The notes under the pieces were generated by a model, which worked only from the letters and a program-made list of their open reading frames with translations, made no database searches and had not been told where the DNA came from. The position numbers and the translations under genes were made by a program. This document shows positions 51,378-58,098 of a DNA stretch of 64,000 nucleotides, in pieces (within the stretch, counting starts at the first letter, position 1; each line of letters begins with the position of its first letter). Origin of the DNA: the human T2T-CHM13v2.0 reference genome, Homo sapiens; NCBI RefSeq assembly GCF_009914755.1, contig NC_060926.1; one strand, 5' to 3'.

Positions 51378-53370
51378 CCTTTCCCAGTAATCACTGTTGA
51401 TTACGAGAATGTTACCATGCAGCTTTGCATCTGTTCCTTGTACTGTATGCACATTGCTCAAAGGAAAGTCAGTGGCTTGCACTACTTACAAGTTTCATAG
51501 ATTTGAGCCTAACCACAAGAGGCTGGTGCTTAGTACTGTTTTCCCTGCACGTAGGGGTCTTTTAAAAATATAAAGCTTGTGATAAAGAGAGGAGAATATG
51601 GGACTCCATGAACCAGTGTTGATATGTTTGATTAAGACTTTTCACAAAATAATCATATAAAACACTAGTCTCTTTATTAGTAGAAACTTCTGTGGCTATG
51701 CAGAAATAGAGATCGAACCAAAAAAAATCATTTAAACTTTAAAAATATTTTAAATGGACTTTGGGGAGACATTTTTTGTGTGTTTTAAGAATGAATTGTA
51801 GTGCTCTTTAATTCAGCTACATATATTCATGTGGTGATAGGGATCAACTTGACACAACTTTGAAACTGCATAAAGTAGACATAGGAACTAGAGGAAAGCT
51901 CAGGCTGCATTAGAGTATGAATTTAGCATTGGGAAAAGCCCTTATTCTTGAATCTAGAGTTACTATTTTTGTATATATTTGCATAGTGTTTAAACCTGCA
52001 GCCTAAACTACTGAAATTTGTGATTGTATGTTTGTGTGAGCTTCAGTTTAATGAAAGATTCATAATGGTTCTTTGTATTATTATAATACTTGGTGTTGGG
52101 GTGTTCTTTCTGTTTTGTTTTTTACTTTAATTTTGTTTTGATTTTTTTTTTTTTTTTTTTTTGGCGGGGGTAGGTGAGGGTTTGGAGCATGTGGTCTTTT
52201 TAAAAAATTGTAACCCTCTAGAAAATATCAAAGAAATGAACCAGACGTGGTTTAAATAGTTGATTTTCCTATTTTAACAGTACCAACTAGTTAATTGGGA
52301 AATGTAAGTTCTGAATGTTCACATTGCTTTACCAGTTTGGCACTGGAACCAAGAGCACATGTCGTGGCTGGCTACAAGGTTGTAAAGCAGAAAATCGAAG
52401 TTTACCATGTCTGTAATGTGTACATGAAGTGTCAATTTAGAACAGTTACTAGGATAAACTCCATTATTGCCATGGCTGTCATGGTACCCAAGTGACTTGG
52501 AAGATGCATTTAAATTACTCAGCTGAAATCACTTGATCATCTTGTGCCAAGATATGCTGTTGGTGCCTGATAGGGATTAGTCTTTTAGGTGCCCTGTTCT
52601 CCTACCATAATTGTGAATGATTTGTGAGAAGTGCAAGCCATGTTTATCCTGAATTTTTACTTAATAATTTGTATTACTAGTCATATGCATGTAGCTTTCT
52701 GTTTACATCCTATGCCACATGGTCTTCATTTATGCCAGGTAAACTGTATTTGAACTATGTGCAGCTAGCTTTGTTTTAATCTGCTTGGCAACCAGTGTAG
52801 CTGCTGTAACAATCTATCTTATTGTTCAAATATATAAGAGCCAAACTCTTTTCCATTCCATCTAAAATGTTTTCATTTAGTACTCTTCTTTCCTCCTACT
52901 CTATGAACTTCAAAACAAAAACAAAACTTTGAGAGCAGCACATGCATCCAGGTATTTATAGATTATTGCCAGTGTCTTTTCTGTATGCTATAAGCAAGGG
53001 AGCTTAGGTGTTATTTCTTTAATTTATGCTTGAATCTGAAAAATTATTTCTGACTTACTCCATGGCCTCCTTATAATAAGTAGAAGTTTTATATATAATT
53101 AATTTTCAGCATTGGGCACTGAATTAGGACAGTCCTCATCTCATTGCTTGGCCCTTCAAGCAACCTAGCTAAAAGGTGCTGATATTTTATTTAGTACTGC
53201 CAACTTCAAGTGATTTAGATATCTATCTATCTAGATTTCTGAACCAAGATATATTTATAGTTCACTTTTGGGTTTTTATACCCACGGTAGGATTCTGCAT
53301 TCCAGCATTAAATCTGCTTCATTTTAGAACCTTTATAAAAGCAATAGCTGGAATATACTCCCAGTTTTAA

Positions 53371-53376
53371 AATAAA
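53371..53376 (+). terminator. Possible proximal SLC39A10 poly(A) signal
   Basis: AATAAA inside the 3'UTR (ATTAAA also at 53307-53312). The downstream element is weak. Confidence 0.35.
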
Positions 53377-53703
53377 TGCCTGATTGATTTAAAGCAAGTA
53401 GGTTATGCTGAAGTATATAAAGAAGTTTTATATTCTCTCAAAAATGGTATTATCTTTCTTTATTTGCTAGATTCTTACAAATCTTTTAAGAGGGCTGTAA
53501 CAGTTGCTGCTAGTATTAGGGTTCCACATCATTCTAATGTATAGTTTCAAGTCTTAATAGACAATCTGAATTCCACTACATTTCTTTTGGCTCCAACATT
53601 CCTTTTAGCTTGACCAGTCTAATTTAAAATGTGTTTGTTGGAGGTCATTAACGTTACTTGTACAATGCTGTCACTGTGTGACATCCATATGAATTTTGGT
53701 ATA

Positions 53704-53760
53704 TATCAATCAATCAATCAATCACATTGCATTCAATCAATCAGCTGTGATTGATTGATT
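53704..53760. repeat. (ATCA)n/(TGAT)n inverted repeat in the 3'UTR
   Basis: aatcaatcaatcaca (53712-53726) is the exact reverse complement of tgtgattgattgatt (53746-53760). Confidence 0.9.
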
Positions 53761-54015
53761 ATGCTTAGAAATACTATAGTAACTAGATGCAGTGTGAATT
53801 TTTTCCATTAACAAACAAACAAGTCAGTGGCTTAAATGTGATTATGGTCCTGCAAGGTGATTCTTGCTAAAATATCTAAACTTTTGTTTTGTTTTAACTG
53901 AATCATTTTTTAACTTAAAAAGCTGGAAAATATCAAATGCTGTTTTTTTTTTTTTCATTGTCAACAGTGGTGTGTCATTTTATGTATGTTCCTAATGCTT
54001 ATGGAACTCCTCCAA

Positions 54016-54021
54016 AATAAA
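54016..54021 (+). terminator. SLC39A10 distal polyadenylation signal
   Basis: AATAAA with upstream TGTA (53983) and U-rich tract, and a downstream GTGTGTTTTCTTT element. Confidence 0.85.
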
Positions 54022-54041
54022 GTTACTCAAAGAGAGCAAAT

Positions 54042-54260
54042 ATGCCAGTGTGTTTTCTTTAGTCTTTATTTCAGAACATTTCCTTACATTTAAGTATGAG
54101 TCATATTAAGTTTAGCTGCATTTGCTCATAAGTAAATTCATAATTATAACTTTAGTCAAATGTATTTAAACAAACAAAAAAAAAGGTTTAAGTAGTAAAA
54201 TATGCTTTCTCTACTCAGCCAGCCAACAAGAAATAGGAACAAGGAAATGATGTCTTCTGG
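54042..54260 (-). other. DNAH7: DNAH7 3'UTR (~220 nt)
   Basis: Lies between TAA at 54263-54261 and the estimated cleavage site ~20 nt past the minus-strand AATAAA. Confidence 0.75.
54065..54070 (-). terminator. DNAH7 polyadenylation signal
   Basis: TTTATT on + is AATAAA on -. It is the first canonical hexamer after the DNAH7 stop and has U-rich downstream sequence on the minus strand. Confidence 0.8.
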
Positions 54261-54467
54261 TTATGAATTAAGTTGACATAACAGTGCTACACCTCGTCCA
54301 ATCCAGTGTTCCTTGGGTTGGTCAGAGGGAAGAGTCATGGCAATCACAAAATTCGTGGAATGGCCAGTGGTGGATAATACTCCTCTCCGCTCACTTGTCT
54401 TATACAATGGAGCAACATAACTTGGCCGTTTTGGTATATCTGCCCTCTTACAGGGCTTTAGCCACAT
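54261..54467 (-). CDS. DNAH7: Dynein axonemal heavy chain 7, terminal coding exon
   Basis: Minus strand ttccag|ATG TGG CTA. Encodes [68 protein letters not shown], a typical axonemal dynein C-terminus (PLYKT..R, GHSTNFV, HW..RGVALL). The paralog name rests on recalled adjacency of DNAH7 to SLC39A10. Confidence 0.93.
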
Positions 54468-56003
54468 CTGGAAGAAAGTACATAACACCTCTTTAAGTCA
54501 AGGCTGTTTGTTAAATGTACATGTGTTTGAGCCTACTATAGTATTCTCAGAGTAAGGTTATGCATGCAGATTTCTGTGGCCCAAATTTATTTTCACCAGC
54601 AGTGTTGTTGTGATTGCTCAAAACATTTTATAGAACTCTCATAACTGAAAAAAATAGTTTTCGCCTTCTCTTTCTAAAAGCATATTTTCTACCTATTTAT
54701 CTCTCACTCAGCCACAATTACCTGGGAAATGACTTTTAGTGCTTACAATGATAAAAAAAAAATCAGATACACTTTCAAAGGAGAGAATTGCCACACTGAT
54801 ACTGAGAATCATGTGCCTTTATATTAATTGAAAGCCAGTCCCAAAAAATTCTGAAGGGATTTTTATCAACAGCTGTATAGCTAGAGAACCTTCCCATTTT
54901 AGGAGACTATTATAAAGGAGATAGATACTATATATATTATGCTGTTTAAAATATAATTGCATTCCTTTATAACCACAATCTATACCCCATTCTTTTTAGT
55001 CATTAAATTCCTACAATTTGTTATTAGACCTCATCAATCTTAAAAATAAGATTTTGAGGCAGTTTGATCTTTGAATGTAAGAGTAAGAACAAACTATGTT
55101 CATAAAGATATTTTAGAATTTAATTCAATTTATTTTTCTGGAGTGGAAGTAATAGCAATCCTCGAGATGATAGGACTTGACAGCCCCAATGTTCAGACCC
55201 CTCTTTTAGGTTTCTCAGGTCAAAACACAGATTGTTGAAGGAGCTTATAAGGATGCCAGTTTCTCTATTTCTCCCACTTAACTGTGGAATCCAGATTTTC
55301 ATAAGGGGGATCCACAAGGCAGTTTTGCAAATACTAACTACAATGTAAAACTCGAAGCACTCTTCCTAACTCAGATTTCATTTCAACCCCAGGGGATTTT
55401 TCTAATGAGAATGTTTATTTCTAACTAGCTGCTTATTCAGGAGAATCATTATCCATTTATAAATTAATTTCTTCTTGTACACACTGCAAGCTACTTAAGA
55501 GTTTCCATGTGAAAGAAAGACTAAATTTCGATCAGCTCCTGAAATTGCATTTATTTGTCCTTGAAACTTTCAATTTGGGTCTTGTATTTTAAACTTTTGT
55601 GCCCATGGTATTTTAAAATGTATGACAGCTTTCTCGCAATTGGCTGTCAGTTGACCCCTCACTGATCCTGTTACAGTTGCTCTGAAGGGGTTTTTAACCT
55701 GTCTTTGAGCTGCTGCCAGAATCCTGCAAAGAAAATTCACATAAATCCCACTGCCTATATTTTATCACAGCATCCCAGATCTACCCTTCAAATTGCTATT
55801 TTCTTAAGCCATTTTCTCATGATGCAGTTATAGATTGAATCTTAATTATATTTTACAAAGCTTAATCTGCCAATACTGGATAGGTGCCTAGGAAATGTGG
55901 CTTTTTAAATTGATGGTTTTTGTAATCTTTAATCTGCAAATTTCACATTTTCAAGTCAAAGTATAAGAAAAATATAATGAACACGTGTGTGTGTATGTAT
56001 ATA

Positions 56004-56920
<917 letters not shown>

Positions 56921-56921
<1 letters not shown>

Positions 56922-56945
56922 TATATGTGTGTGTGTGTGTGTATG

Positions 56946-56985
<40 letters not shown>

Positions 56986-57009
56986 TATGTATACACATAT
57001 ATACACACA
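56921..57009. repeat. (TG)n(TA)n(CA)n compound palindromic microsatellite
   Basis: ~89 bp of alternating purine-pyrimidine sequence. Confidence 0.95.
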
Positions 57010-57084
57010 ATATGGGGTCTATTTTATATATAATATATAAAATATGTATAATTCCACATGTATATATAATTAGAATTTACTAAC

Positions 57085-57188
57085 CACAGGCACTGTATCA
57101 TAAAGAATTTTGGGATGCGATTCTGCAAGTTTCTTGATCTTTCTATTCCAGGAAGCTCCATCCAGAAATAATCCGTGAATGAAAACAC
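57085..57188 (-). CDS. DNAH7: DNAH7 penultimate coding exon
   Basis: Minus strand tttag|GT GTT TTC ... CCT GTG|gttagt. Encodes (G)[34 protein letters not shown], with the dynein GLFLxGAxW motif. 104 nt, phase 1->0, joins the terminal exon in frame. Confidence 0.93.
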
Positions 57189-58098
57189 CTAAATATAAAA
57201 GAAACACATTAATATAACACTTGAAATATGCATTTTGATTGAGTTCTGAATCTGAAATTTCTACATGTAAGTACTATGCAGGTGATACTAGATTTGCAGC
57301 CTAAGATTTGTTCTCCAATGAAAGCAATCTCCTGAGTGTTTTAACATCCATATTTCAAGAACATTGAAACTTTGCCTAGTGAAATAAGACAATAGTAAAA
57401 TTAGGTGTGGAAGACGAGAGGAAAGAAATTTTAAACAGGTCTATGGGAAGTTCTCAGTGTGTGTGTGTGAACATTATCAAATTTATATTGTTAATTGGTC
57501 AATGATTATACTGTGTTTTCAGAAGCTGTGAAATCTAGGGAAAAAAATAGTTCTTAATGTAATAGGGATCCAGTGGTGGCTAGTGGGCAGCATATGAACA
57601 AAGTACCCTTCTGCAGATCTCTAATGTCGTAAGAATTAAATTGCTCCTCCCCTTTTAGAATTTATTCTTACTGCCAAGAGCTCTCCTTAGTCTGTTGATG
57701 ATGAAAGACACATGATGAACTCTCTCTAGAATGTCATGTTGTACACTAACAGCTAAAGAGTACAATTTAGGCAATCAGTGAAACATGAGTTACTTTCTTT
57801 GGCTTTACATATCAGTAAAGCCTCATGGATTGGAGTCTGCAGGTAAAACTGATTGTAACAGTACAGATGTCAAGCAATGTAGACTTTGGGAAGACCAAAG
57901 TTTTAGTTCCTAATTTGTTGTGTGACCTTGAGCAATTAATTTAACTTCAAAACCTGTTTTGTCATCTGGAGAACAACCTTAAAAACATTTGTAAAATAGT
58001 AATATCTGTTTTGTCCACCTTGTAGAGTTGTTAGAATCAAATCAGCTAACATAGGGGGAAATGCCTTTGTAGAGTAGCATATGAAAATCTACTTGAGC

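What the first reader, a model, noticed from the sequence alone, without database searches (positions are those of the whole stretch)
53975..54110. Shared bidirectional polyadenylation cassette between convergent SLC39A10 and DNAH7
Seen: AATAAA (+, 54016-54021) and AATAAA (-, 54065-54070) face each other across 43 nt, so both predicted cleavage sites fall at ~54035-54050 with essentially no intergenic DNA. The SLC39A10 downstream GU/U element (GTGTGTTTTCTTTAGTCTTTATTT) contains the complement of the DNAH7 signal. The DNAH7 downstream U-rich element (TTTGCTCTCTTTGAGTAACTTTATTTT) contains the complement of the SLC39A10 signal. Inferred: each polymerase must read antisense through the other gene before terminating, allowing collision, dsRNA formation or coupled poly(A) choice, and one variant could affect both genes.
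Basis: partly seen in the sequence, partly recalled or inferred. Interest (0 to 1): 0.7.

Follow-up and report, generated by a model that had tools for sequence, protein, structure and literature searches.

The report
Two-way poly(A) palindrome with polymorphic switch
Two human genes end tail-to-tail two bases apart on one short mirror-image stretch, and a four-base insertion that varies between people creates one gene's standard end signal and is predicted to fold the other gene's signal into a hairpin, so one variant would likely tune both.

Summary
Observation confirmed: AATAAA (+54016) and AATAAA (-54065) face each other across 43 nt, and the RefSeq ends (54040, 54043) lie 19 and 22 nt behind them. 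The motif pair alone is ordinary (50,901 in the genome against 52,878 control), and the mature mRNAs do not overlap. Two things were missed. (1) The DNAH7 AATAAA is polymorphic: bases 54065-54068 map to insertion rs10642584, without which only ACTAAA/AAGAAA remain. A published supplement lists it for both genes, predicts both sites about 3-fold stronger, and tags it with haemoglobin, haematocrit and PP. (2) The cassette is an imperfect palindrome. With the insertion both pre-mRNAs are predicted to fold a -15 to -16 kcal/mol hairpin that buries AAUAAA (opening 5.7/7.9 kcal/mol; 0 of 50 same-spacing genomic pairs match on both strands). Without it the SLC39A10 signal opens at about 1 kcal/mol. 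Sequence-only and structure models thus predict opposite effects on SLC39A10. Best reading: two cis-acting sites coupled through shared DNA, not through collision. No 3'-end, QTL or conservation data were found.

The parts
54016..54021 (+). SLC39A10 distal poly(A) hexamer AATAAA
   Evidence: sequence; 19 nt before the RefSeq end 54040 (hub annotation)
54040..54040 (+). Annotated 3' end of SLC39A10 (CA at 54037-54038 followed by two templated A)
   Evidence: hub annotation; context
54048..54071 (+). GU/U-rich downstream element of SLC39A10; also the 3' arm of the predicted hairpin
   Evidence: 20 U in the 40 nt after the end; predicted paired
53983..53986 (+). UGUA upstream element (CFIm-type motif) of the SLC39A10 distal site
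   Evidence: role inferred from established poly(A) grammar (passage)
54065..54070 (-). DNAH7 poly(A) hexamer AATAAA, present only on the insertion allele
   Evidence: 22 nt before the RefSeq end 54043; 'created_AATAAA' row in PMC10651852 supplement
54065..54068 (.). Inserted TTTA of rs10642584 (anchor C at 54064); this genome carries the insertion
   Evidence: row; only context within 52000-56000 that fits both gene-feature labels; independent anchor rs200008298 agrees within 1 nt
54054..54063 (-). Variant hexamers ACTAAA (15 nt before the end) and AAGAAA (11 nt), the DNAH7 signals left without the insertion
54043..54043 (-). Annotated 3' end of DNAH7 (after CA); last base before the apical loop of the predicted minus-strand hairpin; centre of the dyad symmetry
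   Evidence: hub annotation
54014..54040 (-). U-rich downstream element of DNAH7; also the 3' arm of the minus-strand hairpin
   Evidence: 19 U in the 40 nt after the end; predicted paired
54085..54088 (-). UGUA upstream element of the DNAH7 site
54015..54071 (.). Predicted hairpin on either strand: 8-bp outer helix 54015-54022 with 54064-54071 buries AAUAAA, with the cleavage sites at the apex
   Evidence: prediction only
54000..54086 (.). Imperfect inverted repeat centred on 54043; weaker symmetry out to about 50-80 nt beyond each hexamer
53371..53376 (+). SLC39A10 proximal AATAAA (candidate competing site; predicted open; no UGUA within 60 nt)
   Evidence: usage untested
53459..53464 (-). 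Next AATAAA on the DNAH7 strand, about 580 nt past the annotated end (candidate fallback site inside the SLC39A10 3' UTR)
   Evidence: usage untested

Best explanation
Two poly(A) signals lie interleaved on opposite strands of one 55-bp quasi-palindrome at the abutting annotated ends of SLC39A10 and DNAH7, each likely acting in cis on its own pre-mRNA, so that the genes are likely coupled through shared DNA letters rather than through colliding polymerases. Shown: the hexamers, their spacing to the annotated ends, U-rich downstream and UGUA upstream motifs on both strands, a 2-nt gap, and dyad symmetry above controls. Taken from a published table and mapped here: the 4-nt insertion rs10642584 makes the DNAH7 AATAAA. 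Inferred: its main effect is on DNAH7. The insertion allele gives efficient cleavage at 54043. The shorter allele relies on ACUAAA/AAGAAA and leaks more DNAH7 RNA into the SLC39A10 3' UTR in cells that express DNAH7. The effect on SLC39A10 is likely smaller and its sign is open: extra U in the downstream element (stronger) is set against a predicted hairpin over AAUAAA (weaker). The hairpin can close only once about 28-30 nt past the cleavage site have been made, so processing factors probably load first most of the time.
For: Geometry and motifs. A model's poly(A)-site probability is at least 0.98 for both strands and both alleles, with predicted strength -5.17 to -3.55 (DNAH7) and -2.46 to -0.75 (SLC39A10) in log2 odds. 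The mapping is supported two ways. The same paper finds non-AAUAAA/AUUAAA variants 4.5- to 13-fold weaker, and AAUAAA most important 21 nt upstream. AAUAAA stays open (0.3 kcal/mol or less) until 26 nt past the end on both strands. Convergent coding genes with close ends are enriched in human and mouse, with no significant expression correlation reported for convergent pairs. Dnah7a/b/c are silent where Slc39a10 is expressed in mouse erythroid cells.
Against: No 3'-end reads, QTL or reporter data seen. The two genes and the rsID had 0 hits in the supplements of three poly(A)-variant papers. The model's site positions map to 54050 and 54056, 10 and 13 nt from the RefSeq ends, which is unexplained. 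A check of the coordinate offset at a second variant 70 kb away failed to find the expected motif within 300 nt. The symmetry is stronger than two independent signals require, and this explanation treats it as secondary. Conservation was not testable.
Confidence: 0.55

Rival explanations
1. Hairpin switch (riboSNitch): the insertion completes an 8-bp helix that hides the SLC39A10 AAUAAA from CPSF, as the HIV-1 polyA hairpin does. The insertion allele would then shift SLC39A10 to its proximal site (53371) or to read-through in any cell, with no DNAH7 transcription needed.
For: Hairpin of -16.0 (+) and -15.2 (-) kcal/mol, z -3.95 and -3.48, with 0 and 2 of 200 shuffles as stable. Opening cost of the + AAUAAA is 5.5-6.2 kcal/mol with the insertion and 0.8-1.1 without, over 4 flank sizes. 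The two hexamers rank 2nd and 1st of 159 AATAAA in the window. 0 of 50 genomic pairs of identical spacing are as buried on both strands, and 2 of 50 reach 3 kcal/mol on both. With hexamers fixed and inner halves shuffled apart, 8 (+), 18 (-) and 4 (both) of 300 reach it. Precedent: a -17.5 kcal/mol hairpin masks the HIV-1 AAUAAA, and stabilising it lowers polyadenylation (PMC2645353 passages).
Against: Prediction only, found post hoc. The stem is AU-rich. 2 of 50 controls match on the + strand alone, and 2-3 of 50 have an equally stable core. It closes late in transcription. A sequence-trained model predicts the opposite sign. The inner stem over the downstream element is predicted on both alleles, yet the site is the annotated end. 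The HIV energy comes from another program.
Confidence: 0.2
2. Incidental adjacency: both 3' ends are efficient enough on either allele, the symmetry is a by-product or a relic of an old inverted duplication, and the variant is a passenger in the blood-trait haplotype.
For: The motif pair is no more frequent than control. The variant is not among the lead variants searched for in the SLC39A10 association table (0 hits for the rsID in 3 files). Haemoglobin and haematocrit leads in the 32 of 65 rows read lie at other positions. No paper names the rsID in its main text. The shorter allele still scores 0.98 as a DNAH7 site.
Against: Gain or loss of a canonical hexamer at the optimal distance is predicted to change strength about 3-fold. 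Symmetry exceeds controls.
Confidence: 0.15
3. Mutual regulation by transcription: opposing polymerases collide over the cassette, or read-through RNAs pair, so DNAH7 activity shifts SLC39A10 poly(A) choice or level and the reverse.
For: In CSF1R (c-fms)/HMGXB3, 162 bp apart, 1-4% read-through RNAs regulate the partner (PMC8370744). A short distance to an antisense gene goes with more proximal-site use. A predicted + strand lncRNA starting 422 nt past the SLC39A10 end, with no CpG island or TATA, may be read-through.
Against: The mature ends do not overlap. Dnah7 genes are silent in the one erythroid data set seen. Convergent pairs show no significant expression correlation in CCIVR2. Nothing here is specific to the 55-bp core.
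Confidence: 0.1

Closest known systems
Human convergent (tail-to-tail) coding pairs with adjacent ends, e.g. CSF1R/HMGXB3 (PMC8370744; CCIVR2 survey PMC10491648)
   Same: Opposite-strand genes whose ends meet; read-through would give antisense RNA.
   Different: There the gap is 162 bp and the signals are separate. Here the gap is 2 nt, the signals are interleaved and quasi-palindromic, one hexamer is polymorphic, and cross-regulation is untested.
Bidirectional termination zones of budding yeast (bioRxiv 10.1101/2022.11.02.514956, abstract seen) and shared poly(A) signals in Arabidopsis (cited in PMC10491648)
   Same: One short stretch ends transcripts on both strands.
   Different: Yeast zones centre on a self-complementary UAUAUA read from both strands. 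Here each strand has its own AAUAAA, and only the DNA and the downstream elements are shared.
HIV-1 polyA hairpin (PMC2645353 passages)
   Same: AAUAAA lies inside a hairpin of similar predicted stability, and small changes alter its availability.
   Different: The viral hairpin is experimentally shown and serves 5'/3' LTR discrimination. Here it is predicted only, can form on either strand, and is toggled by a germline indel.
Poly(A)-signal variants (pA-QTL / 3'aQTL; PMC7451987, PMC10651852)
   Same: A germline variant creates or removes AAUAAA at a used site.
   Different: The same four bases also sit in the downstream element of a second gene. rs10642584 is already listed for both genes, as prediction rows only; no experiment or discussion was found.

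Membership tests
Canonical mammalian poly(A) site | AAUAAA about 20 nt upstream of the end | tested here: met
   19 nt (SLC39A10) and 22 nt (DNAH7, insertion allele only)
Canonical mammalian poly(A) site | U/GU-rich downstream and UGUA upstream elements, no A-run after the end | tested here: met
   20 and 19 U per 40 nt; one UGUA on each strand; 2 and 1 A in the next 10 nt
Canonical mammalian poly(A) site | Dominant cleavage shown by 3'-end reads | not testable with these tools
   Only the hub's RefSeq ends and a model's scores; no retrocopy marks either end
Convergent pair with bidirectional termination zone | Ends of both strands within one short stretch | tested here: met
   Annotated ends 54040 and 54043 (annotation)
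Convergent pair with bidirectional termination zone | One element needed by both strands, or measured interference | not testable with these tools
   Needs a reporter or genome edit; predictions only
Tail-to-tail cis natural antisense pair | Mature mRNAs overlap | tested here: not met
   2-nt gap between annotated ends; overlap only if the site at 53459 or read-through is used
HIV-1-type poly(A) hairpin | AAUAAA inside a stable local hairpin | tested here: met
   In silico only:
HIV-1-type poly(A) hairpin | Structure probed and CPSF binding or cleavage reduced; covariation across species | not testable with these tools
   No probing data; no other mammal genome held (no relatives)
pre-microRNA or other Rfam RNA | Match at the family's gathering score | tested here: not met
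   Best mir-46, 21.6 bits against 44.7, E 0.31
Transposon-derived bidirectional poly(A) site | Multi-copy repeat at the site | tested here: inconclusive
   1 match in the genome, itself; a very old repeat would be missed and no repeat library was available

The most novel reading that the evidence does not exclude
rs10642584 is a natural two-gene switch. Four bases give DNAH7 its canonical AAUAAA and at once zip a hairpin over the AAUAAA of the zinc transporter SLC39A10, shifting its 3' UTR or read-through, and this underlies part of the haemoglobin/haematocrit signal at the locus. More widely, interleaved two-way poly(A) sites would tend to be self-complementary and to hide their own signals, a structural layer that sequence-only models mis-sign.
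Probability: 0.12. Interest if true: 0.8.

Novelty: new variant of a known kind. Interest (0 to 1): 0.5.

Why it matters
It gives a ready allelic test of whether RNA structure controls a cellular poly(A) site in vivo, because a sequence-trained model (stronger) and folding (weaker) predict opposite effects of the same natural indel on SLC39A10. The variant is tagged with red-cell traits, and ZIP10 has a shown role in erythroid zinc supply (PMC12933087). It also means that human reference assemblies differ in whether DNAH7 has a canonical poly(A) signal at all.

Tried and rejected
Motif-pair rarity: rejected. Retrocopies that would mark the cleavage sites: none; 28 of 29 matches were to a low-complexity T-rich stretch near 52100-52180. 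Rfam or miRNA identity: rejected. Offset check at rs16840097: expected motif absent in 601 nt, inconclusive over 70 kb; replaced by the nearer rs200008298. Cross-mammal conservation: no relatives held; 0 papers for Slc39a10 + Dnah7c; horse and sheep papers place both genes in one QTL region without distances. QTL evidence: 0 hits in the supplements of PMC7451987 (8 files), PMC9636789 (3 files), PMC8092010 (16 of 17 files) and PMC10491648 (1 file). Prior description of this junction: none seen in searches (listings and abstract starts only). The poly(A)-site atlas file of PMC10651852 was too large to read and may bear directly on site usage. Three primary papers on structure and polyadenylation were not held.

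Full report
OBSERVATION. The hub's RefSeq ends, 54040 and 54043, lie 19 and 22 nt behind the hexamers; PMC10651852 puts the optimum at 21 nt (passage). Both ends have a CA at or next to them, 19-20 U in the next 40 nt, one upstream UGUA and no A-run behind them. The mature mRNAs are 2 nt apart and do not overlap.

CHANCE. The motif pair itself is common. The window has 5 facing pairs at 30-60 nt (200 shuffles: 1.8 +/- 1.4). The genome has 50,901 at 38-48 nt against 52,878 for the backwards control, and 4,778 against 4,688 at 43 nt. That each downstream element holds the other hexamer's complement follows from the spacing. The site is single-copy and has no retrocopy. What is real is the match to two annotated ends. 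Such close convergent ends are a described class: CCIVR2 reports them enriched among human and mouse coding pairs and finds no significant expression correlation for convergent pairs (PMC10491648; passages and sections 6 and 7).

THE DNAH7 SIGNAL IS POLYMORPHIC. A search of 7 of the 8 held supplementary files of PMC10651852 (two further files were too large to read) gave two rows for rs10642584 (chr2:196602448, C to CTTTA) in the UK Biobank terminal-exon sheet. For DNAH7 (-, terminal exon) it is 'created AATAAA', strength -5.17 to -3.55. For SLC39A10 (+, extended terminal exon) it is 'created T-rich', -2.46 to -0.75. The listed conditions are Hb, Ht and PP; I read PP as pulse pressure, a trait also listed for this locus. 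Scores are log2 odds, so about 3-fold each. They are model predictions (sections 13 and 32), not measurements. The paper aligns reads to hg38, but this coordinate fits the older build (recalled), so I mapped it by context. C-TTTA-TTT occurs twice in 52000-56000, and only 54064 fits both feature labels. rs200008298 (196602155, 271 bp beyond DNAH7; PMC7856608 passages) places the DNAH7 end 21 nt from the variant, as in the window, and lands within 1 nt of its own motif at 53770. A check at a variant 70 kb away did not find the expected motif. The table's site positions map to 54050 and 54056, not to the RefSeq ends. This genome carries the insertion. Without it DNAH7 keeps only ACTAAA (15 nt) and AAGAAA (11 nt). 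Allele frequency, causal probability and ancestral state were not seen in any call.

THE CORE IS A QUASI-PALINDROME. An inverted repeat has arms 54000-54022 and 54064-54086 (74%), centred on 54043. The arms align at 32 of 40 columns; 1 of 50 same-spacing genomic pairs (the first 50 on contig C1) scores as high, and it is a 5% GC repeat. Outer flanks match at 15 of 30 and 23 of 50 positions (0 of 50 controls; but 5 of 50 at 10 nt and 4 of 50 at 20 nt). Composition shuffles give P 0.0006-0.01 over five lengths, and 0.003 for the whole arm. These tests are post hoc and uncorrected, and no set of true poly(A) sites was available as a control. Both precursors fold a hairpin (-16.0 and -15.2 kcal/mol; z -3.95, -3.48) in which an 8-bp helix buries AAUAAA and the annotated ends sit at the apex. 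Opening the hexamer costs 5.7 (+) and 7.9 (-) kcal/mol, ranks 2 and 1 of 159 AATAAA in the window (median 0.5). Among the 50 controls (medians 1.25 and 1.23), 2 match on +, 0 on -, 0 on both, while 2-3 have an equally stable core. With hexamers and flanks fixed, shuffling the inner 43 nt reaches the target in 3, 14 and 1 of 300 (+, -, both), and shuffling its halves apart in 8, 18 and 4 of 300. The inner halves alone are not significant by global alignment (fraction 0.08-0.18). On the shorter allele the SLC39A10 hexamer opens at 0.8-1.1 kcal/mol, the arm score drops from 34 to 20, and the inner stem remains. The hairpin closes only when 28-35 nt beyond the cleavage site exist, which leaves time for CPSF to bind first (inference). 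The precedent is the HIV-1 polyA hairpin, -17.5 kcal/mol by another program, which masks AAUAAA from CPSF (PMC2645353 passages). Rfam gives only a sub-threshold hit. Because the insertion perfects the palindrome, it could be a template-switch gain as well as an ancestral state lost by slippage (inference from recalled quasi-palindrome mutagenesis).

HOW IT MOST LIKELY WORKS. Each site is read in cis by the standard hexamer, downstream and UGUA machinery (established; passage in PMC13675443). The coupling is genetic: one indel changes a core element of DNAH7 and a downstream element of SLC39A10. I expect the clearest effect on DNAH7 (weak signal and more run-on toward the next minus-strand AATAAA at 53459 on the shorter allele), and a smaller effect of open sign on SLC39A10 (0.55). 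The hairpin switch is the main rival (0.2), then no consequence (0.15), then collision or duplex regulation (0.1). Collision has precedent in CSF1R/HMGXB3 (PMC8370744; abstract, introduction, discussion) and in a genome-wide trend. It needs co-expression, however, and mouse erythroid RNA-seq shows Dnah7a/b/c at 0-3 reads against 37-1343 for Slc39a10 in 7 samples.

TRAIT LINK. PMC12933087 (passages) ties ZIP10 to erythroid zinc and SLC39A10 variants to haemoglobin and haematocrit. Against a causal role for this indel, the rsID had 0 hits in its 3 supplements (one file cut when stored). In the 32 of 65 rows of Dataset S4 that I read, the red-cell leads lie at hg38 194.75, 195.62-195.70 and 195.82 Mb, while the junction is near 195.74 Mb (recalled coordinate; that string had no hit in the file).

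WHAT IS IN PRINT. No main text in the library names rs10642584. Listings for the two genes together, for SLC39A10 with polyadenylation and for bidirectional or convergent poly(A) terms showed no paper on this junction; I saw listings only, and subscription papers are missing. The supplements of PMC7451987, PMC9636789, PMC8092010 and PMC10491648 had no hit. The yeast preprint was seen as abstract and outline. PMC8869311, PMC11350750 and PMC9858812 were seen as passages and give no distances. Conservation could not be tested (no relatives).

VERDICT. A real, extreme member of a known class. The two-gene variant is already tabulated as a prediction but apparently never discussed. The palindrome and the allele-dependent hairpin are new here and predicted only. 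Interest 0.5; the novel case has probability 0.12 and would deserve 0.8.

Noticed in passing
window 54462-57266 (+): Predicted lncRNA LOC107985972 starts 422 nt past the SLC39A10 end with no CpG island or TATA nearby and canonical GT/AG sites, and overlaps DNAH7 exons in antisense; it may be spliced SLC39A10 read-through.
   Followed up: partly
window 53371-53464: A second facing pair, + AATAAA 53371 and - AATAAA 53459 (82 nt apart), could act as an alternative junction (short SLC39A10, long DNAH7); 13 pairs within 100 nt occur in the window, so it may be chance.
   Followed up: no
window 53770-53775: rs200008298, a 5-nt indel in the SLC39A10 3' UTR from a COVID-19 mortality study (p 0.03, MAF 0.032), maps here; this genome carries the listed minor allele.
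   Followed up: partly
window 53705-53743 and 52113-52162: An ATCA tandem array (9 copies) and a 50-nt T-rich tract in the SLC39A10 3' UTR; the latter region gives the only off-target genome matches.
   Followed up: no
window 53943-53955: T13 run upstream of the distal signal; likely the 1-nt length difference between assemblies seen when mapping variants (inference).
   Followed up: no
L060 and L018: Two control pairs with strongly buried AATAAA (opening 7.3 and 5.8 kcal/mol on one strand); whether they are gene ends was not checked.
   Followed up: no
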